From the sequence record PQ850607.1: DNA of 56,332 nt. One strand, written 5' to 3'. This document shows positions 748 to 51,173 of this stretch, piece after piece. How positions within the stretch are numbered: position 1 is the first letter of the stretch; each line of letters begins with the position of its first letter. Source of the DNA: Escherichia phage HelliStehle_Bas95. The position numbers and the translations under genes were made by a program. A model generated the notes under the pieces. It saw only the letters and a program-made list of their open reading frames with translations, was not told the origin of the DNA and ran no database searches.

Positions 748-2375
748 TGTCTAAACGTGACGTGTGGGAGTTTGAAACAGACGAAGATGTATGGCTACTG
801 GCCGACTATCTGGAACAGAAAGCCAACAGCGTTAACTTTACATTTGAGGATGACTCAGAGGTAGACGCATTCTTCCTTAAATGTAAGAACGAGTTCCAGT
901 TCTTCGCTGAACGGTGCTGTACCATCCGCACGAAGGATAACACCCTGGAGCCGATACGCCTCAACAAGGCTCAGAAGTATATGTGTGCTATTGCGGCATG
1001 GCAGGCCCATCACACCGGTAAAGTACGCCTCATTATTGTTAAGGGACGTCAGCAAGGGATGAGTACGGTTGTTCAGGCTCGTGCATTCTGGAAGACCATC
1101 CACACTGAAGCGTACAACGCGTTGATCATGGCACACCAGGCTAAGTCCTCCGCTGCACTATTCGATATGACCAAGCGTTACTATCAATATTGCCCAGAGG
1201 ACTTGCAGCCTTCCAAAGGTCACGATAACGGCTTCGTACTTAAGTTTGCTGAACTTGACTCACAATATAGCGTGGCCACCGCTGGTAGCTCTGCCGCTGG
1301 TCGTGGTATGACAGCATCTTATTTTCATGCGTCGGAAGCAGCCTACTTTGCAGATGGTGCCGAGATCGCATCAGGTATCATGCAGGCCATCCCTAACGCT
1401 GACGGTACCGAAGTATTCCTTGAGTCGACCGCTAACGGTGCGTCAGGCTACTTCTATAACCAGTGGATGCAGGCATCCCCGCCACGTGACACGTCGTTGA
1501 AGGATGCTGATAGCTCCGGGTTCATTCGCGTATTCGTACCGTGGTTCTGGCAACCTGAGTACGCTGAACCAGCACCTGAGAGCATGGTGTACACTGACGA
1601 GGAGAGTAAATACGCACGTTTACATGGTCTTACCCGTGATCAGATGTTCTGGCGTCGCATGAAGGTGAAGTCGCTTGATGGTGATACCCGTCGATTTAAC
1701 CGCGATTACCCTGCTACGGCTGAAGAAGCATTCCAGTCTACTGGTGACAACTTGCTGATCAGCGGTGATATGATCGCCTCAGCTCTCTACTGGGCACGCT
1801 CCGGTAAGCTGGACCCGGTAGGTGCTACCGTTATGGGCGTAGACGTTGCTGCTATGGGTGACGACCAGACTGCAATAGTCATTCGCCGTGGCCGCGTGGT
1901 GCAACATGCCGAGACGTTAAGTAAGGCCACCAACAGGGAGATTGCCAACCGTATTCACGTGCTGCGTGAGATGTACGGCGTCAACCACACGTTCATCGAT
2001 GGTACTGGTGGCTTTGGTACAGGTGTACATGACGTAATGACCGAGCGCGGAATGTCCCACGGTGTGACGATGGTTCACTTTGCAGAGAAGGCTACCGAAG
2101 ACCACAAGTACAACAACAAGCGCTCGGAGATGTGGGCGAAAATGCGCGACTGGCTACGTAACGCCGCCGCACTCCCGCCCGGTCATGACTGGGGTCGCGA
2201 CTTATGCGGCGCTACCTATCGCTTTGAAGGTGACAGGTTGAGACTGGAACCGAAGGCTGACATCAAGAAGCGTATCGGTCGCTCGCCGGATATCGGGGAT
2301 GCACTGGCGTTAACCTTCGCGTTCCCTGTGGTCGAGGGTGGCTACAACGACTCTTACGAGCCGGAGTACGCTTAA
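747..2375 (+). CDS. terL: terminase large subunit
   Basis: 542 aa; P-loop-like VKGRQQGMST near N-terminus, acidic nuclease-type C-terminal half; sits upstream of portal/scaffold/capsid. Confidence 0.85.
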   Translation: MSKRDVWEFETDEDVWLLADYLEQKANSVNFTFEDDSEVDAFFLKCKNEFQFFAERCCTIRTKDNTLEPIRLNKAQKYMCAIAAWQAHHTGKVRLIIVKGRQQGMSTVVQARAFWKTIHTEAYNALIMAHQAKSSAALFDMTKRYYQYCPEDLQPSKGHDNGFVLKFAELDSQYSVATAGSSAAGRGMTASYFHASEAAYFADGAEIASGIMQAIPNADGTEVFLESTANGASGYFYNQWMQASPPRDTSLKDADSSGFIRVFVPWFWQPEYAEPAPESMVYTDEESKYARLHGLTRDQMFWRRMKVKSLDGDTRRFNRDYPATAEEAFQSTGDNLLISGDMIASALYWARSGKLDPVGATVMGVDVAAMGDDQTAIVIRRGRVVQHAETLSKATNREIANRIHVLREMYGVNHTFIDGTGGFGTGVHDVMTERGMSHGVTMVHFAEKATEDHKYNNKRSEMWAKMRDWLRNAAALPPGHDWGRDLCGATYRFEGDRLRLEPKADIKKRIGRSPDIGDALALTFAFPVVEGGYNDSYEPEYA

Positions 2376-3910
2376 CGCTCCATACGGGCTGTACCAGAGT
2401 TAAACAACTGGCCGCAGCCCGCTTTCTCCCACGCATCACGCTGAGAAGTGTAGTCGCCTATCACCTTGCCCATCTCCTTCAAAGTTGACTCAATGTTAGC
2501 GTGCTGCCACTTCTGGCGACTCATGAAGTACCCGCGATCGCTCCAGATACGGAACGACTCGACCACGCTCACAACCTTGAAACCTATAGCTTCGTAAGCG
2601 CTACCGGTGAAGTAGTCATAGTCGGTGAACGTGTAGGTACAGGGTGTTCCTTTCAGCAGACGCGACAGGCCACCTTGCACTGTACATGACGTTGCATATC
2701 TCACCAGTTCCCCATCGTTGGCTACACCAATTGCAGCAACCAGACCGAGCGTCGGGTGTACCAGACCTTTGCGGATAGCTGCCACTCGCCCACGCTGAAC
2801 GTGGTTGTCTTCCATGAATGACATGTAGTCACTCGATGACAACTCAACAACCTTACACTTACGTGCGCCAACCTTTGGCTCACTCGACTTACCCAGCGCG
2901 TGCGCAATGATGCGTTCAATCTGCGGGCGACGCTCTGACCAATCCGTGGCCGACACAGAGATTAGACGGTAACCCTGAGCGTTGCAGAGTTCACGTTTCA
3001 TCATATGATAACCCTTGCGGTCCTTATGCCAGTACTCACCGTTAAACTCGATGGCAACCTTGCACGACTCGATGACGATGTCGAGTTCATAAGGTGCGAT
3101 GATGGACTTGACGTTGTGGGCAACTGTTACACCAAGTGACTCGATATACTCACGCACTTCAATCTCACCACGTGAAACCTGCGTTGACTGTGCACAATGA
3201 GGGCAACCGCTCTTATTCACGATGACATTGTTGACCCGAGCAACCCATTGCTTCCCGCAGTCACCGCACTCGAATTCGCTGTCACCCTTACTTTCTTTGT
3301 AGGTGAGTAGGGTGAGGTTGGAAGGTAAACGACGCTCAATCTCTTCACGTGGTATTACTCGCGCTTTCCCATTGCGACGTTGCCCACAACCTTTACAATA
3401 ACGCTGCCCTGTCATCACGCCGTGCGCGGATGTTTCACGCTCACACCCGCAATCAGCACAGGTGAACACGCTCTTACCTTCCGCTGTCCCACAGTATCTG
3501 ACAAGCTTCACGCCTTCCGGTAAGCGTGCAATAACATCAGATTCGCTAAGCGCGTTACGTTGAGCGGCGCACACCTTGCATCCGCTCCCTTTGGTTAACA
3601 GGTCTTTACACGTAGTTTCCCACTCGTGACCCTCAGTGCAACGGAAGGTACTGCGTTCACGCCGTGATCCACCGTAGGTGACCAGGGTGATACCTTCGGG
3701 CATTGCTGGTGCAGGTTTAACGAAGCGTTGACCGCGGTTACGCTCGGAGCACGCAGGGCAACCTGATGATCTGAATTGTGCGTTGGTTGTACGTGACCAA
3801 TGGTGGCCGCACTCGACGCAACGGAATTCACACACCTTGTCAAGTTTCAGGAGCACCACACCTTTCTGTAAGCGCGGGATAACGTCGGCGTGAGTTAGTT
3901 TAGCTGGCAT
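2372..3910 (-). CDS. zinc-ribbon repeat protein with PD-(D/E)xK (DUF559/Vsr-like) nuclease motif; putative free-standing homing endonuclease
   Basis: 512 aa; four tandem CxxC...HxW...CxxC ribbons, then ELDIV ... AIEFNGEYWH motif; opposite strand inserted between terL and tail-fibre genes. Confidence 0.65.
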   Translation of the reverse strand: MPAKLTHADVIPRLQKGVVLLKLDKVCEFRCVECGHHWSRTTNAQFRSSGCPACSERNRGQRFVKPAPAMPEGITLVTYGGSRRERSTFRCTEGHEWETTCKDLLTKGSGCKVCAAQRNALSESDVIARLPEGVKLVRYCGTAEGKSVFTCADCGCERETSAHGVMTGQRYCKGCGQRRNGKARVIPREEIERRLPSNLTLLTYKESKGDSEFECGDCGKQWVARVNNVIVNKSGCPHCAQSTQVSRGEIEVREYIESLGVTVAHNVKSIIAPYELDIVIESCKVAIEFNGEYWHKDRKGYHMMKRELCNAQGYRLISVSATDWSERRPQIERIIAHALGKSSEPKVGARKCKVVELSSSDYMSFMEDNHVQRGRVAAIRKGLVHPTLGLVAAIGVANDGELVRYATSCTVQGGLSRLLKGTPCTYTFTDYDYFTGSAYEAIGFKVVSVVESFRIWSDRGYFMSRQKWQHANIESTLKEMGKVIGDYTSQRDAWEKAGCGQLFNSGTARMER

Positions 3911-4043: not shown

Positions 4044-4784
4044 ATGCCCGGAATTATCTTACATGATGAGGACGTTTATCGTCTGGCTCAGTCAGTAAAC
4101 GTCAAGCAAACAGAAGGTTACGCGCCAATGGGTGGCATCCTTGCCAACAACGGCATGTACTATCAGCCAATGGTTGAAGGTAGCGTTACCGCTCAGTACG
4201 TGGTGGTCCGCGAGCAGGAGTCACAAAACTTTATTGCTCGCTCGGAGACTACCACAGGATCGGCCCTCGGCGACATCCAGTACGTTGACGGCTTTTTCCT
4301 ACAAGCCTTCGGTGAGGAACCGGGCGGCGGGTCAGCTACCGTAGCGTGGGGCGATGTTACAGGTAAGCCGGCAACCTTCCCGCCAACCACGGGCACCACT
4401 GCGGGTACAGCACTCGCTGGTACACAAACGCTTGCAACCATTCCCGGTACCGTAACCATTGCTAAAGGTGGTACTGGGGCAACTACGGCTGACGCGGCGT
4501 GGACTGCACTCGGCGGCGGTGCTGTCGGCAAACTGGCCTCCCTGCCTGCGGCAACTACTGCTGCTGCTGGTGTGGTGCGTAAAGCTGTGGCCGTTACTGA
4601 CGCTACAAGCTCGGCGTCTACGGTACCCGCAGCACTGGCACCTGACGCTGACCTGGCAACTACTGTGACGGCGGTAAACGCTATCATTACCGCACTGACC
4701 GCAGTGCGCAGCAATTCCGGCAGCAGCGTTACGCAACTTAACGCACTGTTAGCGGCACTGAGGACAGCGCTGGTTGTATCGTAA
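4044..4784 (+). CDS. tail fibre-like protein
   Basis: 246 aa; WGDVTGKPATFPP motif typical of phage side tail fibre proteins; Gly/Thr/Ala-rich repeats. Confidence 0.65.
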   Translation: MPGIILHDEDVYRLAQSVNVKQTEGYAPMGGILANNGMYYQPMVEGSVTAQYVVVREQESQNFIARSETTTGSALGDIQYVDGFFLQAFGEEPGGGSATVAWGDVTGKPATFPPTTGTTAGTALAGTQTLATIPGTVTIAKGGTGATTADAAWTALGGGAVGKLASLPAATTAAAGVVRKAVAVTDATSSASTVPAALAPDADLATTVTAVNAIITALTAVRSNSGSSVTQLNALLAALRTALVVS

Positions 4785-4790
4785 TATCAG

Positions 4791-4804
4791 GGGGCTTCGG
4801 CCCC
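4791..4804 (+). other. GC-rich RNA hairpin GGGGC(UUCG)GCCCC directly after fibre gene
   Basis: C(UUCG)G tetraloop stem-loop; same element recurs after the capsid gene. Confidence 0.5.
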
Positions 4805-4826
4805 TTATTCATGGAGAAGTGACACA

Positions 4827-5129
4827 ATGGAATATCAAATCGTCAAAGGTTATTACCACGCACAAAAGTTACCGCAGATTGGTGACGCTGTAGCACGGGC
4901 GCTGGCGGCTGGCTGGGTACCGTGGGGCACTCCTGTAATAACTCATCCCGGTTGTGTCTGGCAACCGATGGTCAAAGATATGACGCGAGTCATCACTAAA
5001 TATCAAATCGTTGAAGGTTTTATCGACGGGGCCAGGTTGCCAACACTCCACATGCCCGAAGGCTGGACGCCACACGGTGACACGGTGCACGTCGGTAACG
5101 GCTATTTGCTGCAAGCCTGCGTACAGTGA
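4827..5129 (+). CDS. hypothetical protein with internal duplication (YQIVKGYY / YQIVEGFI)
   Basis: 100-aa ORF; N-terminal motif shared with next gene. Confidence 0.5.
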   Translation: MEYQIVKGYYHAQKLPQIGDAVARALAAGWVPWGTPVITHPGCVWQPMVKDMTRVITKYQIVEGFIDGARLPTLHMPEGWTPHGDTVHVGNGYLLQACVQ

Positions 5130-5166
5130 TACTATGGCTTGTCAATAACCAAACCGGAGATTTGCA

Positions 5167-6435
5167 ATGGCAATCACAAGTTATAAGGCGGTCGTGGGCT
5201 ACTACAATAGCGCCGGGACGCCCAGCATTACTACGGCTGTTACAGGCCAGTTGTCGGACGGGTGGATCCCTATCGGTGCGCCTATCCTGACCGACGCATA
5301 CGGGCAGTGTACTCAGATGATGGCAAAGACTGACGCTACGCCAGTTATCGCTACGTCAGCTTACACCGTGGTTACGGCAGCCAACCCGCAGCCGCCGGAC
5401 GCTACCTGGGATGCTCAGGGTGAGCCGCTATGGATTGACACGACCACGTATCTCCAGGCGTACACTAAGGGCGGCGCGTATCTGCAAGGTGTAATCAATT
5501 TAGGGTCCAGTCAGGTGACAGGTACGTTACCTGTTGCTAACGGGGGCACAGGTGCTAATGACGCTGCTACAGCACGTGCAAACTTAGGTTTAGGTGCAGT
5601 AGCCACACTCAACACTATTCCTGTTGCTAACGGGGGTACCGGTGCTAATGACGCTGCTACAGCACGTGCAAACTTAGGTTTAGGTTCGACAGCTACCCTA
5701 AATATCATACCTGTTGCTAATGGTGGTACAGGTGCTAGTGATGCTGCTGGTGCAAGGAGCAATCTAGGAGCACTGAGTAATACCCCAGCAAACACAGGTA
5801 CAGGCGGTATTGGTGCGCGAGTCCAGCATGCCTCCGGGGGCGGTCTGTTTAATTTAGACATGTTTAACTGCTACTGGTACATGCAGCCAGAGGATACTAA
5901 CTTCTGGATTGCCCACGGTGTGTCATATGCAGGAGCTGGTGGCGAAGCCTCAAACTACGGTCGTGTAGCTTACGCAATAAAAATCGCAGATGGAACAATA
6001 AAATATGTCCAGTGTCGTACAGACAAAAATACCACTGTCGACGTAAACGGGTTTATCAAAGCTGCATCTCCGGTAGTTAATATTTATGCCAATGGTCGAT
6101 ATGAAACGAATGATGAATCTGAGAAGGTCAGTGTCATTCGGCAGGGTGTTGGTGAATATCTGATTACCGGTTGCCTCGGTTTAAACGCAGACGCACGCTG
6201 GGGAGGTATCGACGGCGGCTTTGAAATTCCTGTTGACCGGAACAAACAACCCAGGGTTTGGCTGGATTATGATGTTAAAGAAGATGGTTCTATTTTAGTT
6301 AAGACCTATCATAGAACCCATTCAACATCCCCAGCTTTTGCTAGAAACGAGTTGGAAGGTTTTTCTGACGGCGACCCGATCGACATTCCCGCCGATGCTT
6401 TCGTATCAGTTCGTGTCGAAATGCCTTCTGAGTAA
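5167..6435 (+). CDS. tail fibre protein with collagen-like repeats
   Basis: 422 aa; three tandem 30-aa repeats PVANGGTGANDAATARANLGLG...; globular C-terminal domain. Confidence 0.75.
   Translation: MAITSYKAVVGYYNSAGTPSITTAVTGQLSDGWIPIGAPILTDAYGQCTQMMAKTDATPVIATSAYTVVTAANPQPPDATWDAQGEPLWIDTTTYLQAYTKGGAYLQGVINLGSSQVTGTLPVANGGTGANDAATARANLGLGAVATLNTIPVANGGTGANDAATARANLGLGSTATLNIIPVANGGTGASDAAGARSNLGALSNTPANTGTGGIGARVQHASGGGLFNLDMFNCYWYMQPEDTNFWIAHGVSYAGAGGEASNYGRVAYAIKIADGTIKYVQCRTDKNTTVDVNGFIKAASPVVNIYANGRYETNDESEKVSVIRQGVGEYLITGCLGLNADARWGGIDGGFEIPVDRNKQPRVWLDYDVKEDGSILVKTYHRTHSTSPAFARNELEGFSDGDPIDIPADAFVSVRVEMPSE
5530..5799 (+). repeat. 3 x 90-bp in-frame tandem repeat (collagen-like fibre repeat)
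   Basis: CCTGTTGCTAACGGGGG unit starts at 5530, 5620, 5710; third copy diverged. Confidence 0.8.
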
Positions 6436-6557
6436 TTTAACAATGCTTCTTGATTCAATGCGCGTAGTGCCGACTATTCGGCTGAACTGTCCGCTCTCAA
6501 ATCTGGCAAGTAATCCCCAGTCCTGCTATGATGCTCTGATTAACGGAGGATGAAATC

Positions 6558-6737
6558 ATGGCAGGACGTCAAGTTACCTACACAACCCGTAGCTTAGGCG
6601 AGATTGTGAATCGCCTTGATCCTAAACGTTTAACGGAACCTGAAGTAGTTTATGTTCTGGATAACGGGAAGACGATTAAGGAGATTCCAACCTTGCCGGG
6701 CCACGATTATCGCTGGACAAAGGACATTGAAGAATGA
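6558..6737 (+). CDS. small hypothetical protein
   Basis: 59-aa ORF filling gap, ATG at 6558; below six-frame track cutoff. Confidence 0.35.
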   Translation: MAGRQVTYTTRSLGEIVNRLDPKRLTEPEVVYVLDNGKTIKEIPTLPGHDYRWTKDIEE

Positions 6738-12149: not shown

Positions 12150-12165
12150 GGGGGCTTCGGCCCCC
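12150..12165 (+). other. GC-rich RNA hairpin GGGGGC(UUCG)GCCCCC after capsid gene
   Basis: second copy of the UUCG-tetraloop element. Confidence 0.5.
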
Positions 12166-25887: not shown

Positions 25888-26262
25888 ATGGACATGGGAT
25901 ATTACAACATGAACAAGCAGATTAGAGTGGAAATGCTTGTCGGCATGGTGACACTTGCATGGTCAATCGTGGCGGCAGTCTTCAAACAGCCGATCATTAT
26001 CGACGAGTTATCTGGTGTTATGCCGGGCGCATATTGGGTATTCTCAGGTATCGTAATCGGAGGCGCACAAATCTTCATCTCCCGCAATCCCGACCGATGG
26101 ATGGGAACATTCAGTCACTGGTGTGTAGCGTTCTTCAGTTGTATCTTCTGGTGTTATCTCGGCATGGCCGCACAGGCTGCCGCAGTAGGAGTTCTTCCCG
26201 TCCTGATTTTCTGGTCAACCGCTGGTATCACTTTATGGGAGTTGGCTCATGTTCGAACTTAG
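25888..26262 (+). CDS. membrane protein
   Basis: about 125 aa, several hydrophobic helices; start codon uncertain. Confidence 0.45.
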   Translation: MDMGYYNMNKQIRVEMLVGMVTLAWSIVAAVFKQPIIIDELSGVMPGAYWVFSGIVIGGAQIFISRNPDRWMGTFSHWCVAFFSCIFWCYLGMAAQAAAVGVLPVLIFWSTAGITLWELAHVRT

Positions 26263-26482
26263 TTCAATTCCTGTGGATGCGCCGTTACCTTTCATTGCCA
26301 TCGCTGTGTTATTCAACCTGGTGCGCCATGCGTTGAATCTTCACCACGAACGTAAGAAGGAAGCTGCGGAAGAGGCCACGAACGAAAGGATTGTTTTGTT
26401 GTCAGCTAAACTGGCGAGGGCGGAACAGACTATCGAGCACTTGAGGGAAGAAGTGGAACGCTTAGTAAACAAAGGGGCTTAA
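26249..26482 (+). CDS. small membrane-anchored coiled-coil protein
   Basis: 77 aa; N-terminal hydrophobic helix then charged helical region. Confidence 0.45.
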   Translation: MFELSSIPVDAPLPFIAIAVLFNLVRHALNLHHERKKEAAEEATNERIVLLSAKLARAEQTIEHLREEVERLVNKGA

Positions 26483-26493: not shown

Positions 26494-26679
26494 AATACTC
26501 GCTGCAATTTTTAACTGCACAGGTACACGGTCAGGATCGCGGTGAATACCTACATCCGACGGTGCGGAAATGCGTAGACCGACGTTACCGTTCTCGGAGT
26601 TCTCCACCGTCACGACAATATCGTTACCGATGTAAACACTCTGACCTTCACGTCTGGTAATACGAAGTCCCTTAGCCAT
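26479..26679 (-). CDS. csrA: CsrA/RsmA-family RNA-binding regulator homologue
   Basis: 66 aa MAKGLRITRREGQSVYIGNDIVVTVENSENGNVGLRISAPSDVGIHRD matches CsrA pattern L-I-T-R-R-x-G-x4-I-G-x4-V-T-V...AP..V..HR. Confidence 0.75.
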   Translation of the reverse strand: MAKGLRITRREGQSVYIGNDIVVTVENSENGNVGLRISAPSDVGIHRDPDRVPVQLKIAASIKKGR

Positions 26680-26905
26680 TGATCTCCGCCTTAGCTTTCT
26701 TAGCTTTGATGACGCGACTAATCGCCACCAGTAAAGTGATAACACCAGACACGACCGGGAGATATTCCTCCGGTACCACAGCCTGGAATAAATGTGGGGC
26801 AGTTTGCCACACGATGAGTGCTGCGTCAGGTACGGTGGTCAGTACGGTGGTCACAGCGATACCAATAGTAATACCAGCATCATGCAATGCTTTAGATTTA
26901 TCCAT
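26672..26905 (-). CDS. holin-like small membrane protein
   Basis: 77 aa, two hydrophobic helices and basic C-terminus; immediately downstream of endolysin. Confidence 0.55.
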   Translation of the reverse strand: MDKSKALHDAGITIGIAVTTVLTTVPDAALIVWQTAPHLFQAVVPEEYLPVVSGVITLLVAISRVIKAKKAKAEING

Positions 26906-26961: not shown

Positions 26962-27492
26962 TTAGATATTGACGCGATTAGCAACCCACCCGTAAATGAA
27001 CGAGCGATTTTTAGCGTTGCTTTCGGTAAGCTCAATATACCGTACGCACTGGAGACTGTTAAGCATTTTCAGTAATACTTTAGTGCCAACGCTACCGCGT
27101 GAACGCAGGAAGTCTGCGAGGGCATTCACTGTACGCTTACCGATAGCACCATCCACTACGAGGCCAGCGCCTGACACAGCGTTGAGTGCACGCTGGAGGA
27201 ATTTACCAGCCACCGTCGGACCCATGTTCACGCCAGTGTCCACCACTTCCGCAGCTACAGCCGGGTCAAGTTCAGCCAGTCGGTGATAGCCGGGATTGAT
27301 CACGTAGTCTTTGTAGTAGATGTCGTAGGCTGTGGTAACAGGTAAGTCCCGCATGTTACCTTTATATCCGGCAGCACGGGCAACCTTTTCAGTGATGCCG
27401 TATTTGGTAGCGCCGCCCGGATCATTCGGATGGTCTACGTATCCACCTTCAACGCGAATAATCTCGTCGATGATTTCACGGATGCTTGTCAT
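26962..27492 (-). CDS. endolysin, glycoside hydrolase family 108 with C-terminal peptidoglycan-binding domain
   Basis: EGGYVDHPNDPGGATKYGIT signature near N-terminus; 176 aa. Confidence 0.8.
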   Translation of the reverse strand: MTSIREIIDEIIRVEGGYVDHPNDPGGATKYGITEKVARAAGYKGNMRDLPVTTAYDIYYKDYVINPGYHRLAELDPAVAAEVVDTGVNMGPTVAGKFLQRALNAVSGAGLVVDGAIGKRTVNALADFLRSRGSVGTKVLLKMLNSLQCVRYIELTESNAKNRSFIYGWVANRVNI

Positions 27493-48384: not shown

Positions 48385-48569
48385 TCGTTTCTCTCTTCAC
48401 CCGGTACCAGCCAGCCTTCTTTGACCAGTTGATCACACGTTTCATCAAGACTGGCGGGGACAACCTTCGCCCCTGTCAGCGCCCAGCGGTGGCCGCCTAC
48501 TTGCTGCGGGTAGTGGTGCAGTTTCGCACCCGCTTTAAGCTCGACCGTCAGCACGTAGCCGCGCATCAT
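48369..48569 (-). CDS. hypothetical protein
   Basis: 66-aa ORF. Confidence 0.45.
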   Translation of the reverse strand: MMRGYVLTVELKAGAKLHHYPQQVGGHRWALTGAKVVPASLDETCDQLVKEGWLVPGEERNEWVLW

Positions 48570-48847
48570 GATTTGTTGATTTCCACGCCGTTGATAGTGA
48601 CGTGCAGGATAACGTTCGGTTCATCCTTACGCAACGTGTTTACGGTACGTTTCGCCAGGTCCGCGCAGTCTGCCACGTATACGCGTTGTTCACCGTTAAC
48701 ATCAACCAGACAACCTTCAACTGTGCGATCGTTACCGACAATATCAATGTTGTCGAACTTCATTTCGACAACACCGTTAGCGTGCGCTACGTTCATACCT
48801 ACAGCCATTGCCGCGTATGCAGCCGCAATCATAACAATGTATTTCAT
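48566..48847 (-). CDS. secreted protein with N-terminal signal peptide
   Basis: MKYIVMIAAAYAAMAVGMNVAHA signal-like N-terminus; 93 aa. Confidence 0.5.
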   Translation of the reverse strand: MKYIVMIAAAYAAMAVGMNVAHANGVVEMKFDNIDIVGNDRTVEGCLVDVNGEQRVYVADCADLAKRTVNTLRKDEPNVILHVTINGVEINKS

Positions 48848-49768: not shown

Positions 49769-49986
49769 TATTTAATACTCTCCAGGTAGTCAACGTTCCA
49801 GTTACGAAGGTGATAGATTTTGTTGGTGTCGTATTTATAGCGAGTAAGGCACTGTGCGATTTGCTCACCGGCTGATGTGGTATACACGTTCACCACGATA
49901 CAAGGGAATACCAGTTGCTCGGCCAGAGCGCCAATCATACCTTGCGCTTCCGGTTTGAGTTTTACTACGTCGCCGTCAGTTAACAT
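49768..49986 (-). CDS. hypothetical protein
   Basis: start at internal ATG 49986 (TAATG overlap). Confidence 0.45.
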   Translation of the reverse strand: MLTDGDVVKLKPEAQGMIGALAEQLVFPCIVVNVYTTSAGEQIAQCLTRYKYDTNKIYHLRNWNVDYLESIK

Positions 49987-50213
49987 TAGTCTTTCCACCA
50001 TTTCTTTTTTGATTCCAGCCAGGCGCAAGCCTCGTTGATAGTGTCGCAGTTTGACGACATCTCACCGTTGAACCGGGAGAAATACCCCTCGTAAAACTTA
50101 ACGACCGTATTCCCGTTGCGGTCTTCCCATACGGCCGAGTCGTTGCGACCGTCAAAGCTGGTCAGTTTGAAGCCGCCCGGTGTTAATGCTAATGCCTGCT
50201 CAATAGTCATCAT
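49986..50213 (-). CDS. hypothetical protein
   Basis: 75-aa ORF. Confidence 0.45.
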   Translation of the reverse strand: MMTIEQALALTPGGFKLTSFDGRNDSAVWEDRNGNTVVKFYEGYFSRFNGEMSSNCDTINEACAWLESKKKWWKD

Positions 50214-50404
50214 GATATTAATTCCCCTACTGTTACGTTGAGCGCCGCCGCCAGTGCTACCAGCGTTTGAAGGCGCGGATTGTTTGCTTTCAGTACCATG
50301 AACAGTGCGCCACGTTTCCAGCCTGCTCGCCGTTCAACCTCTGATAAACTTATGGCCTCCTTCTCGGCCAGGAGTTGCACACGTTGCTTTAAATTCACTG
50401 CCAC
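50210..50404 (-). CDS. HTH (XRE/Cro-like) transcriptional regulator
   Basis: 64 aa; ISLSEVERRAGWKRGALFMVLK helix-turn-helix pattern; GTG start. Confidence 0.5.
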   Translation of the reverse strand: MAVNLKQRVQLLAEKEAISLSEVERRAGWKRGALFMVLKANNPRLQTLVALAAALNVTVGELIS

Positions 50405-50574
50405 TTAAATTCTCCCATAATGTCGATTGCTTTGATGGGATCCCGCTCACACATTGCCACTAATACAGCGGCGGTGGCGACAATCCCGTTATGTGCTGCG
50501 TTTGTACACCCGATAAGCGCAAATACGATGACCGAGCATACAATCCATAAACAGATATTAAATGTCATCGCCAT
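50395..50574 (-). CDS. small hydrophobic peptide
   Basis: 59-aa ORF MAMTFNICLWIVCSVIVFALIG...; below six-frame track cutoff. Confidence 0.3.
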   Translation of the reverse strand: MAMTFNICLWIVCSVIVFALIGCTNAAHNGIVATAAVLVAMCERDPIKAIDIMGEFKWQ

Positions 50575-50681
50575 AACTCCACCGGAAGGTTAAAGACAAA
50601 GCGGAGAACCGCCCACACCGCCACCATTGACGCCACCCATAACACCAGGGAGACGGTGAGACCTGTGATTATTCCTTGCAT
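50565..50681 (-). CDS. small hydrophobic peptide
   Basis: 38-aa ORF MQGIITGLTVSLVLWVASMVAVWAVL...; ATGA overlap with next ORF. Confidence 0.3.
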   Translation of the reverse strand: MQGIITGLTVSLVLWVASMVAVWAVLRFVFNLPVELWR

Positions 50682-50801
50682 TACAACCGCCTTAATTGCG
50701 TGATGATGTCGTGAAAGGTGCCGTAGTCACATGTCATGATGTACAGCGTCGACAGAATAAACAGCGCGATTGACAGTTTAAGCGCCGCGCTTGCGAATAC
50801 G

Positions 50802-51173
50802 TTAAATCCAGCCATGTGTGCCCCCGCAGTGCGTCATTGCATCATAAAGGTTGGTGAAGACCTGGCCGCGTGTGTCGCCCGTGTAGGTTTCCCAGCGGCC
50901 CGTTTTGTCCAGCTTGATACCACGCTTTAACGTGTCGTGATAGACAGCATTGTTACCATATACCCGAAGCTCGTAAAGAACATTGCGCCCTTTCCGGACA
51001 GTGATCAGATAGCCGCCAAACGTGGTAGATCCGATTAACGTTAAATCGTCGAGTGTGTACACCTGGTACATCTCATCCTGCATACTACCGTACTTGCTAC
51101 GCTCAATCGGAAAGTCGGTAATGTGCGCCACGGCGGCGATGAATCTCGGCAAGTTGTTCACAGGAACCCCCAC
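50802..51173 (-). CDS. hypothetical protein
   Basis: 123-aa ORF. Confidence 0.5.
   Translation of the reverse strand: MGVPVNNLPRFIAAVAHITDFPIERSKYGSMQDEMYQVYTLDDLTLIGSTTFGGYLITVRKGRNVLYELRVYGNNAVYHDTLKRGIKLDKTGRWETYTGDTRGQVFTNLYDAMTHCGGTHGWI

What the first reader, a model, noticed from the sequence alone, without database searches (positions are those of the whole stretch)
50395..50681. Pair of overlapping small hydrophobic peptide genes missed by the ORF track
Two ORFs of 59 and 38 codons with ATGA overlaps encode mostly hydrophobic peptides immediately upstream of the HTH regulator gene. Small membrane peptides in early regions are often host-inhibitory (division, transport or defence blockers).
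Basis: seen in the sequence. Interest (0 to 1): 0.25.

Follow-up and report, generated by a model that had tools for sequence, protein, structure and literature searches.

The report
Phage mini-lipoprotein and membrane-peptide genes
The two tiny overlapping reading frames are real, conserved genes of an E. coli podophage: one encodes a 38-residue membrane-spanning peptide and the other the precursor of a very small exported lipoprotein from a previously undescribed family, both probably dispensable accessory factors that act on the host cell envelope.

Summary
The window is a Xuquatrovirus-like E. coli podophage, about 82% nt identity to PTXU04 and Pondi. Both ORFs lie on the minus strand in a train of overlapping small genes: 123 aa > 44 aa > 38 aa > 57/59 aa > HTH. 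Both are genuine genes, with dN/dS of 0.10-0.22 (38 aa) and 0.08-0.11 (57 aa). They keep their synteny in a dozen or more metagenomic relatives, and the 38-aa gene is annotated as PTXU04 gp72.

The larger gene most likely starts at its second ATG (57 aa, a true ATGA overlap). It is not a membrane-embedded peptide but a prolipoprotein:
- The lipobox L-I-G-C is invariant.
- Substitutions and all indels concentrate in the signal peptide.
- Two distant homologues, found by an exhaustive HMM search, carry canonical lipoprotein signals.
- Those homologues sit among tail-fibre genes.

PTXU04 and Pondi carry an unrelated canonical lipoprotein in the same slot. An identical mature lipoprotein occurs with at least four different fibre tips, so it is not matched to the variable fibre.

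The function is untested. An Llp/Cor-like envelope or exclusion role is the best guess. Knockdown of the PTXU04 gene in the same slot (gp71) and of the 38-aa homologue (gp72) was scored "Not Fit". This is a new small family of a known kind, of modest interest.

The parts
50395..50568 (-). p57: 57-codon prolipoprotein gene. The mechanical 59-codon ORF extends to 50574. The stop codon is at 50397-50395.
   Evidence: ORF list. Homologues are mostly called as 57 aa on related contigs. dN/dS is 0.08-0.11. Distant homologues P0005 and P0006 were found at E 2.5e-7 and 4.4e-6 against 1.84 billion proteins.
50509..50568 (-). Signal peptide of p57, codons 1-20 (MTFNICLWIVCSVIVFALIG). The h-region is 18 residues and there is no K/R in the window copy.
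   Evidence: Hydropathy maximum 3.07 over residues 5-19. 11 of 20 columns are variable and all length variation (52, 53 or 57 aa) falls here across 29 variants.
50506..50517 (-). Lipobox L-I-G-C, codons 18-21. Cys21 is the predicted lipidation and cleavage site, and the +2 residue is Thr.
   Evidence: Translates to LIGC. It fits the PROSITE PS51257 core pattern. The Cys is invariant in all homologues, including the distant ones.
50398..50508 (-). Mature p57 lipopeptide, 37 residues (CTNAAHNGIVATAAVLVAMCERDPIKAIDIMGEFKWQ), predicted to form two helices.
   Evidence: Only 8 of 37 columns are variable. C21, H26, N27, C40, D43, I48, D49, I50 and G52 are invariant out to 42-48% identity. AlphaFold2 places helices at 24-40 and 44-55, at low confidence (pLDDT 65).
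50577..50583 (-). Shine-Dalgarno sequence GGTGGAG for p57, lying inside the last codons of p38 and 8 nt upstream of ATG 50568.
   Evidence: Read from the sequence. It is conserved in all relatives that carry p57.
50565..50681 (-). p38: 38-codon single-span membrane peptide gene (MQGIITGLTVSLVLWVASMVAVWAVLRFVFNLPVELWR). Its stop overlaps the p57 start as ATGA.
   Evidence: ORF list. Hydropathy is 2.29 over residues 8-26. It is present in every Xuquatrovirus-type locus examined, including Pondi and PTXU04 gp72. dN/dS is 0.10-0.22. 21 columns are invariant.
50681..50815 (-). p44: third small hydrophobic ORF, occupying a hypervariable slot. Its stop overlaps the p38 start as TAATG.
   Evidence: dN/dS is 0.14-0.16. 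In relatives the slot holds a 52-aa homologue (32% identity, E 3e-7), one of two different 38-aa forms, a fusion to p38, or nothing.
50210..50404 (-). Downstream Cro/C1-type HTH gene (64 aa, GTG start) that overlaps the p57 3' end by 10 nt. It is context, not part of the pair.
   Evidence: Pfam HTH_26 and HTH_3 at E about 5e-6. PHROG 8. The start aligns with the ATG of the Pondi and PTXU04 genes.

Best explanation
The finding is part of a tightly packed, translationally coupled minus-strand operon in a Xuquatrovirus-like E. coli podophage. The operon carries a small cluster of accessory genes for envelope-targeted micro-proteins.

p38 is a single-span inner-membrane peptide. It has a hydrophobic run of about 26 residues and a short C-tail carrying R27 and R38, so an N-out/C-in topology is inferred. 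A conserved Ser/Ala/Trp face suggests helix-helix binding to a membrane partner.

p57 is a prolipoprotein. [quoted passage not shown] The mature product would be a 36-37-residue lipidated helical hairpin.

Shown here: both are protein-coding genes under purifying selection. p57 has lipoprotein sequence features. The p57 family is found either in this early-region slot or among tail-fibre genes. The slot holds an unrelated lipoprotein in PTXU04 and Pondi.

Inferred, at about 0.3 probability: p57 remodels or blocks a conserved envelope component of the infected cell in the manner of the superinfection-exclusion lipoproteins Llp and Cor. It would act on a step common to the genus, such as a secondary receptor or genome ejection, rather than on the variable glycan receptor. 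p38 would act separately on an inner-membrane target.
For: Identity of the phage: the region matches PTXU04 and Pondi.

Coding status:
- Third-position substitution bias, and dN/dS of 0.08-0.22.
- Conserved synteny 119/123 aa > slot 1 > p38 > p57 > HTH on more than 12 independent metagenomic contigs.
- SD motifs and overlaps of ATGA, TAATG and 10 nt.

Lipoprotein status:
- PS51257 core pattern with Cys at residue 21.
- Across 29 variants, 11 of 20 signal-peptide columns vary and all indels lie there, against 8 of 37 mature columns. The lipobox L[IM]GC is invariant and the +2 residue is always T/A/S.
- The variant P0004 keeps only a 13-residue h-region, too short for a stable transmembrane helix.
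- The distant homologues P0005 (MKYLILLIVLVSGC...) and P0006 (MRQLLLVAVLTLTSC...) have textbook lipoprotein signals, and their Cys aligns with Cys21.

Accessory and envelope role:
- In PTXU04-like contigs L013 and L014, the homologues sit between tail-fibre genes, one with an ATGA overlap to a GDSL-esterase fibre.
- PTXU04 and Pondi hold an unrelated canonical lipoprotein, MSKSIIAIILATLLAGC..., in the same slot.
- PTXU04 gp71 and gp72 were scored 'Not Fit' in the CRISPRi-ART screen (PMC11879866).
- Small lipoproteins encoded next to receptor-binding genes are the known signature of Llp/Cor-type exclusion factors (PMC9586334).
Against: - The window copy has no Lys or Arg in the n-region. Only 7 of 29 variants carry R/K at residue 2, so it fails the auxiliary PROSITE rule.
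- No lipidation, export or expression data exist.
- The AlphaFold model is low confidence (pLDDT 65).
- There is no significant sequence similarity to Llp, Cor or any Pfam, NCBIfam or PHROG family.
- The mature part has one free Cys, whereas Llp and Cor share an intramolecular disulphide.
- An identical mature p57 occurs in phages whose fibre C-termini are unrelated. The co-variation with the receptor-binding protein that typifies Llp and Cor is therefore absent.
- A relative of the genus depends on O-antigen (10.1101/2024.09.12.612763), which a periplasmic lipoprotein cannot mask.
- A location among fibre genes may only reflect a common insertion hot-spot for accessory genes.
- Nothing links p38 to any specific target.
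Confidence: 0.6

Rival explanations
1. Both products are integral inner-membrane peptides, with p57 as a two-helix hairpin. Early in infection they inhibit a host function such as division, transport or a defence system.
For: Both are very hydrophobic, and p57 has a second invariant hydrophobic stretch, IVATAAVLVAM, with hydropathy 2.66 over 11 residues. The window signal region has no positive charge. The genes sit in a train of small genes typical of early, host-takeover regions. For p38 this reading is not contradicted at all.
Against: For p57, the lipobox Cys is invariant while the first hydrophobic segment tolerates deletions of 4-5 residues and many substitutions. The second segment is only 12-13 residues, and in the distant homologues it is far less hydrophobic (LVVTSTAIAVGV, FTALMSLAAI), while their N-termini are canonical lipoprotein signals. 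No toxicity data exist. PTXU04 gp72 is not among the genes reported as toxic, and it was scored 'Not Fit'.
Confidence: 0.2
2. p57 is a receptor-masking exclusion lipoprotein matched to its phage's own tail fibre, a strict Llp/Cor analogue. It was carried into the early region from the fibre module.
For: The homologues P0005 and P0006 are embedded between fibre genes in PTXU04-like contigs, and they differ from each other (37% identity) as the neighbouring fibres do. Llp lies next to pb5, and exclusion lipoproteins lie downstream of gpJ loci in siphophages (PMC9586334).
Against: This was tested directly. The same p57 protein (P0046, whose mature part is identical to the window's) is encoded on the records that give L021, L026 and L029. 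Their distal fibres (439, 459 and 690 aa) share only the N-terminal 110-220 residues with the window fibre (422 aa). The fibres of this group look glycan-directed, with esterase, pectate-lyase and S74-chaperone domains and O-antigen dependence of a relative. A periplasmic lipoprotein cannot mask a glycan.
Confidence: 0.08
3. p57, and the unrelated lipoprotein in PTXU04 and Pondi, is the outer-membrane spanin subunit or another lysis accessory of a phage in which no spanin has been annotated.
For: p57 is the only credible lipoprotein ORF in the window. No spanin is annotated in PTXU04. The mature part has a single free Cys, as lambda Rz1 uses for dimerisation (from knowledge). There are weak PHROG matches of the homologues to Rz-like spanins, at E 0.05-0.5 and over signal peptides only. 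T4 spanin genes also lie far from the holin and endolysin genes (from knowledge).
Against: There is no inner-membrane spanin partner. p38 leaves at most about 8 residues outside the membrane, and the mature p57 is 37 residues, helical and hydrophobic with one Pro, so together they could not bridge the periplasm. The lysis cassette (endolysin 26962-27492, holin 26672-26905) is 23 kb away. The homologues sit among fibre genes, not lysis genes.
Confidence: 0.06
4. The ORFs are chance reading frames, or the real gene is the antisense plus-strand ORF 50420..50593 (57 aa).
For: Short ORFs are common by chance. The antisense ORF shares its wobble positions with p57, so third-position bias alone does not separate the two, and it stays open in close relatives.
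Against: The sense frame has the better synonymous to non-synonymous ratio in every pair. The antisense frame is broken by stops in L013. All neighbouring genes are on the minus strand with coupled starts. Distant protein homologues exist only for the sense frame. No Rfam RNA family matches the region.
Confidence: 0.03

Closest known systems
T5 Llp, the lytic-conversion and superinfection-exclusion lipoprotein that acts on FhuA
   Same: [quoted passage not shown] The p57 homologues in L013 and L014 share that position.
   Different: There is no detectable sequence similarity. Mature p57 is about 37 residues and predicted helical, with one free Cys instead of an intramolecular disulphide. In the window it lies in the early-gene arm. 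It does not co-vary with the fibre. Its target is unknown.
Cor exclusion lipoproteins of T1, phi80, N15 and HK022 (PHROG 1119)
   Same: They are small lipoproteins encoded in or next to the tail-fibre region and are accessory.
   Different: p57 gives no match to PHROG 1119. P0005 matches only at E 0.25, over residues 1-36 of 51. Cor proteins act on FhuA for siphophages, whereas this is an O-antigen-associated podophage group.
PTXU04 gp72 (PTXU04_00072) and gp71 (PTXU04_00071), and Pondi_00032
   Same: gp72 is the direct homologue of p38 (84% identity). gp71 and Pondi_00032 occupy exactly the p57 slot between p38 and the HTH gene, and they are canonical lipoproteins. Both PTXU04 genes scored 'Not Fit' in CRISPRi-ART.
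   Different: gp71 is unrelated in sequence to p57. Its mature part is hydrophilic and looks disordered, it has its own SD, it sits about 60 nt from p38, and it is followed by a GGGGCTTCGGCCCC hairpin.
Lambda Rz1 and other outer-membrane spanin subunits
   Same: They are tiny lipoproteins (Rz1 is 40 residues when mature) with a free periplasmic Cys, and they are dispensable under standard plating conditions.
   Different: p57 is not proline-rich, is not embedded in or adjacent to an inner-membrane spanin gene, and is not near the lysis genes.
Small single-span membrane proteins that regulate larger membrane proteins, such as T4 Imm, and E. coli AcrZ, MgrB, SgrT and Blr (from knowledge)
   Same: p38 is in the same size class, has one hydrophobic helix with a conserved small-residue and aromatic face, and is encoded in an accessory region.
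   Different: There is no sequence relationship, and no partner or phenotype is known for p38.

Membership tests
Bacterial-type lipoprotein precursor (PROSITE PS51257 / SPase II substrate) | Lipobox [LVI][ASTVI][GAS]-C with the core pattern {DERK}6-[LIVMFWSTAG]2-[LIVMFYSTAGCQ]-[AGS]-C | tested here: met
   FALIGC ends at Cys21. It is invariant as L[IM]GC in 29 variants, and the Cys is kept in the distant homologues.
Bacterial-type lipoprotein precursor (PROSITE PS51257 / SPase II substrate) | Cys between residues 15 and 35, preceded by a hydrophobic h-region | tested here: met
   Cys is at residue 21 (23 in the 59-codon reading), and the h-region covers residues 3-20.
Bacterial-type lipoprotein precursor (PROSITE PS51257 / SPase II substrate) | At least one Lys or Arg in the first seven residues | tested here: not met
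   The window copy starts MTFNICL. Residue 2 is R/K in 7 of 29 variants, and both distant homologues start MK or MR. From knowledge, a long h-region can compensate for a missing charge.
Bacterial-type lipoprotein precursor (PROSITE PS51257 / SPase II substrate) | Acylation and globomycin-sensitive cleavage | not testable with these tools
   This needs palmitate labelling, globomycin treatment or mass spectrometry.
Llp/Cor superinfection-exclusion lipoproteins | Sequence membership (Cor = PHROG 1119; Llp has about 20% identity to Cor) | tested here: not met
   p57 gives no PHROG hit better than E 0.055, and that hit is to an unnamed family. P0005 against Cor gives E 0.25. tblastn of p57 against 50,697 phage records finds nothing below E 5.
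Llp/Cor superinfection-exclusion lipoproteins | Intramolecular disulphide in the mature protein | tested here: not met
   The mature p57 has only one Cys (C40) besides the lipidated Cys21. The defining feature is taken from PMC9586334.
Llp/Cor superinfection-exclusion lipoproteins | Gene adjacent to the receptor-binding or tail-fibre gene | tested here: inconclusive
   This is met for the homologues in L013 and L014. It is not met in the window and its clade, where the gene lies about 45 kb from the fibre genes, next to the HTH gene.
Llp/Cor superinfection-exclusion lipoproteins | Allelic co-variation with the receptor-binding domain | tested here: not met
   An identical mature p57 occurs with four unrelated fibre C-termini.
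Llp/Cor superinfection-exclusion lipoproteins | Blocks adsorption or infection when expressed | not testable with these tools
   This needs plating and adsorption assays.
Outer-membrane spanin subunit (Rz1-like) | Lipoprotein gene embedded in, overlapping or next to an inner-membrane spanin gene (N-terminal TM plus a long periplasmic coiled coil) | tested here: not met
   The upstream neighbour p38 is 38 aa with no periplasmic domain, and the downstream neighbour is an HTH protein.
Outer-membrane spanin subunit (Rz1-like) | Part of, or co-regulated with, the lysis genes | tested here: not met
   The endolysin and holin genes lie at 26.7-27.5 kb.
Holin (considered for p38 and p44) | One or more TM domains plus a charged hydrophilic C-terminus, next to the endolysin gene | tested here: not met
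   p38 has one TM, but its tail is only 8 residues with net charge 0. The annotated 2-TMD holin homologue lies elsewhere, at 26672-26905 with 97% identity to PTXU04 gp29.

The most novel reading that the evidence does not exclude
The p57 family and the unrelated PTXU04/Pondi lipoprotein are interchangeable cassettes of a new class of outer-membrane lipoprotein exclusion factor in O-antigen-dependent podophages. Such a factor would block a conserved post-adsorption step, either a secondary receptor or formation of the ejection channel, rather than the primary receptor. The universally conserved p38 peptide would be the inner-membrane half of the same barrier.
Probability: 0.15. Interest if true: 0.55.

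Novelty: new member of a known kind. Interest (0 to 1): 0.3.

Why it matters
The result adds two, arguably three, real micro-protein genes to a poorly understood phage genus in which most genes have no assigned function. It corrects one start codon.

It also defines a previously undescribed family of very small phage lipoproteins. The family forms about three 50%-identity clusters, has dozens of metagenomic variants, and has no Pfam, PHROG or NCBIfam model. Its genes move between the tail-fibre module and the early region.

If the products prove to be exclusion or envelope-remodelling factors, they would extend the Llp/Cor principle from siphophages that use outer-membrane protein receptors to glycan-dependent podophages. 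They could also help identify the unknown secondary receptor or entry route of Xuquatroviruses. In practice, the case shows that annotation pipelines miss conserved genes of 38-57 codons: the homologues of p38 and p44 are unannotated in Pondi.

Tried and rejected
1. Family searches of p57, p38 and p44 against PHROGs, Pfam and NCBIfam found nothing significant. The weak hits are signal-peptide or hydrophobic matches.

2. The k-mer protein search cannot take a 38-aa query. A concatenated p44+p38 query found nothing. PTXU04 gp72 is in the collection, so the search itself lacked sensitivity for these peptides.

3. tblastn of p57 against phages and plasmids, and blastn of the cluster against 5,426 E. 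coli genomes, gave no hits beyond PTXU04 and Pondi for p38. There is no evidence of a prophage or plasmid origin.

4. An IMG/VR scan with the HTH protein returned only PTXU04 itself.

5. The promoter and terminator scan found no more sites than expected by chance, so no operon boundaries could be called.

6. The AlphaFold2 model of p57 has pLDDT 65. I judged this too low for a meaningful fold search, so none was run.

7. I considered that a missing n-region charge co-varies with a longer h-region. I dropped the idea after finding K2 and R2 variants with the full-length h-region.

8. Cluster member P0023 (867 aa) is an unrelated, mis-clustered protein.

9. I could not determine whether L013/L014-type phages also carry the gp71-type lipoprotein in their early slot. 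That slot lies about 12 kb from the fibre-module gene, beyond the 10-kb flank limit.

Full report
**What is in the sequence**

Both ORFs lie on the minus strand: 50395..50574 (59 codons) and 50565..50681 (38 codons). They belong to an uninterrupted train of minus-strand genes:
- 123 aa (50802..51173)
- 44 aa (50681..50815)
- 38 aa
- 57/59 aa
- a 64-aa Cro/C1-type HTH protein (50210..50404; Pfam HTH_26/HTH_3, E about 5e-6)
- 75 aa (49986..50213)

The junctions are a 14-nt overlap, TAATG, ATGA, a 10-nt overlap with a GTG start, and ATGA. That start is the better one. A GGTGGAG Shine-Dalgarno motif lies 8 nt upstream of it but only 2 nt upstream of the first ATG. The first ATG is GTG in relatives such as L003 and L009. 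Gene callers on related contigs mostly report 57 aa. I call the products p38 and p57, and the extra upstream ORF p44.

**Where the window comes from**

The region and the structural genes match Escherichia phages PTXU04 and Pondi (genus Xuquatrovirus) at about 80-88% nt identity, and match nothing else in 50,697 phage records. PTXU04 is a 61.6-kb podovirus with a non-permuted genome (PMC6563267). A relative of the genus depends on O-antigen (10.1101/2024.09.12.612763). The lysis genes of the window (endolysin 26962-27492, holin 26672-26905) are 23 kb away. Nothing similar to the cluster occurs in 5,426 complete E. coli genomes, and p57 has no match in PLSDB plasmids.

**Are they genes?**

Yes. 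p38 is present in Pondi (unannotated) and in PTXU04 (annotated as gp72) at 84% identity. p57 has close homologues on many metagenomic contigs, always in the order 119/123 aa > slot 1 > p38 > p57 > HTH.

Substitutions fall mainly on third codon positions:
- p38, window against Pondi: 6/3/17, chi-square p = 0.002
- p57, window against L003: 3/1/15, p = 0.0001

NG86 dN/dS is 0.10-0.22 for p38, 0.08-0.11 for p57 and 0.14-0.16 for p44.

One caveat concerns the plus-strand antisense ORF 50420..50593. It shares its wobble positions with p57 and stays open in close relatives. However, it has the worse synonymous to non-synonymous ratio in every pair and is broken by stops in L013. No Rfam family matches the region.

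**What p57 is**

An exhaustive profile search of 1.84 billion representative proteins found only three 50%-identity clusters: the window's own cluster, P0005 (51 aa, E 2.5e-7) and P0006 (53 aa, E 4.4e-6). Both distant members begin with textbook lipoprotein signals, MKYLILLIVLVSG|C and MRQLLLVAVLTLTS|C. Their Cys aligns with Cys21 of p57, which sits in a lipobox L-I-G-C that fits the PROSITE PS51257 core pattern.

Across 29 distinct close variants:
- 11 of 20 signal-region columns vary, and every length difference (52, 53 or 57 aa) lies there.
- Only 8 of 37 mature columns vary.
- The lipobox is invariant.
- The +2 residue is always T, A or S, never Asp.

One variant, P0004, retains only a 13-residue hydrophobic core, too short for a stable membrane anchor. 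This is the pattern of a cleaved signal peptide, not of a transmembrane helix.

C21, H26, N27, C40, D43, I48-D49-I50 and G52 are invariant across all three clusters. AlphaFold2 suggests two helices in the mature part (24-40 and 44-55), but at pLDDT 65, so I did not run fold searches.

One weakness remains. The window copy has no Lys or Arg in the n-region, and residue 2 is R/K in only 7 of 29 variants. Export and lipidation are therefore inferred, not shown. Sorting to the outer membrane follows from the E. coli +2 rule, which I take from established knowledge.

**Genomic behaviour of the family**

L013 and L014 are PTXU04-like, with 99.5% identical terminase. There the p57 homologue lies inside the hypervariable tail-fibre module:
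- In L013 it sits between a GDSL-esterase fibre (ATGA overlap) and the next fibre gene.
- In L014 it sits directly upstream of a 690-aa fibre, after a GGGGCTTCGGCCCC hairpin.

In the window clade the gene sits in the early-region slot. In PTXU04 and Pondi that same slot holds an unrelated, canonical lipoprotein: MSKSIIAIILATLLAG|C followed by a hydrophilic tail, called 'phage lipoprotein' by HHpred in PMC11879866.

A genome-wide lipobox scan finds p57 as the only credible lipoprotein ORF in the window.

Slot 1, upstream of p38, is hypervariable. It holds p44, a 52-aa homologue, one of two different 38-aa forms, a fusion to p38, or nothing. p38 itself is retained everywhere, with 21 invariant columns. 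A more distant phage (L015, HTH 64% identical) lacks the cluster.

**Testing the Llp/Cor idea**

Small lipoproteins encoded next to receptor-binding genes are the hallmark of exclusion factors such as T5 Llp and the Cor proteins (PMC9586334). The position of the homologues in the fibre module fits that.

I tested the corollary that the lipoprotein should co-vary with the receptor-binding domain. An exact-match look-up of the window's conserved 122-aa gene gave ten window-clade contigs with different fibre modules. Their distal fibres share only the N-terminal anchor of about 110-220 residues with the window fibre. The p57 variant P0046, whose mature part is identical to the window's, is encoded on three of those same records, those of L021, L026 and L029. 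An identical mature p57 therefore accompanies at least four unrelated fibre tips.

p57 is not a fibre-matched receptor mask. If it is an exclusion factor, its target must be common to the genus. It also fails the sequence and disulphide criteria for Llp/Cor membership.

A spanin role is unlikely. There is no partner with a periplasmic domain, the mature part is not proline-rich, and the gene is not near the lysis genes.

**Functional data from the literature**

In the transcriptome-wide CRISPRi-ART screen of PTXU04, gp72 (the p38 homologue) scored -1.36 and gp71 (the lipoprotein in the same slot) scored -1.11. Both were classed 'Not Fit', and neither is among the genes reported as toxic (PMC11879866). 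This fits dispensable accessory genes. The screen also scored the holin as 'Not Fit' and admits false negatives, so the result is weak evidence.

**Verdict**

However, the larger one is best explained as a tiny exported lipoprotein of a new, genus-restricted family, not as a membrane peptide. No inhibitory activity has been shown.

My best mechanistic guess for p57, at about 0.3, is an outer-membrane lipoprotein acting on a conserved envelope target in an exclusion-like manner. p38 is a conserved single-span peptide with an unknown membrane partner.

This is a new member of a known kind. It is useful for annotation and as a lead to Xuquatrovirus entry biology, but it would not surprise a specialist.

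Noticed in passing
window 50681..50815 (-): A third small hydrophobic ORF (p44, one TM) is coupled to p38 by TAATG. It is unannotated in PTXU04 and Pondi. The slot is hypervariable in relatives: a 52-aa homologue, two different 38-aa forms, a fusion with p38, or nothing. Only the first 3-4 codons (M-A/V-G-F), part of which overlaps the end of the upstream gene, are conserved.
   Followed up: yes
window 2372..3910 (-): A 512-aa minus-strand ORF lies between the terminase and the plus-strand tail-fibre genes. It has a DUF4379 treble-clef zinc finger (E 3e-14) and weak, sub-threshold matches to MTES_1575 and Vsr-like nuclease domains. It had no match among the PTXU04, L013 and L014 proteins compared. 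It is probably a mobile or homing nuclease.
   Followed up: partly
window 4792..4803 and 12152..12163 (+); L001 3312-3323 (-), L002 2750-2761 (-), L014 3968-3979 (+): An identical GGGCTTCGGCCC (UUCG-loop) hairpin follows the first fibre gene and the major capsid gene: 2 copies against 0.14 expected by chance. The same hairpin follows the slot lipoprotein gene of PTXU04 and Pondi, and precedes the fibre-module lipoprotein gene in L014. It may be a terminator or RNA-stability element, or a boundary at which cassettes are exchanged.
   Followed up: partly
window 4044..6435 (+); loci L020-L029: The tail-fibre module is extremely mosaic. Phages with an identical 122-aa neighbouring gene carry at least ten different fibre sets, with S74 chaperone, pectate-lyase, GDSL-esterase and Phage_tail_C_2 tips. 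The window's fibre region (5542-6725) is 84-86% nt identical to tail-fibre genes of Kuravirus/Gordonclarkvirinae phages, which suggests exchange between families.
   Followed up: partly
window 48566..48847 (-); L003 6822..7094: The early arm encodes a second envelope-directed small protein. In the window it is a 93-aa protein with an N-terminal hydrophobic, signal-peptide-like segment (MKYIVMIAAAYAAMAVGMNVAHA...), judged by eye. At what looks like the corresponding position, L003 has a 90-aa canonical lipoprotein (MKYIIAALAGLALTGC...).
   Followed up: no
window 50420..50593 (+): An antisense 57-codon ORF opposite p57 shares its wobble positions and stays open in close relatives. This is a trap for codon-position tests. 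It is broken by stops in L013.
   Followed up: yes
L002 2548..2799 (PTXU04_00070) and window 50210..50404: The annotated PTXU04 HTH gene is probably called too long at its 5' end. The conserved start, 64 aa and MAINLK, matches Pondi and the window's GTG start. The extra codons overlap the end of the lipoprotein gene.
   Followed up: partly
window 25888..26479 (+) (PTXU04 gp26 and gp27 homologues): At the end of the late operon, facing the holin and endolysin genes, lie a 124-aa protein with several hydrophobic, apparently membrane-spanning segments and a 77-aa protein with an N-terminal hydrophobic segment and a charged, coiled-coil-like tail (both read by eye). They are unannotated as lysis genes but could be lysis regulators. 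No spanin pair is evident in this genus.
   Followed up: no
L019 2919..3437: One relative has an HNH_3 endonuclease gene inserted two genes downstream of the HTH gene, which shows ongoing invasion of the early arm by mobile genes.
   Followed up: no
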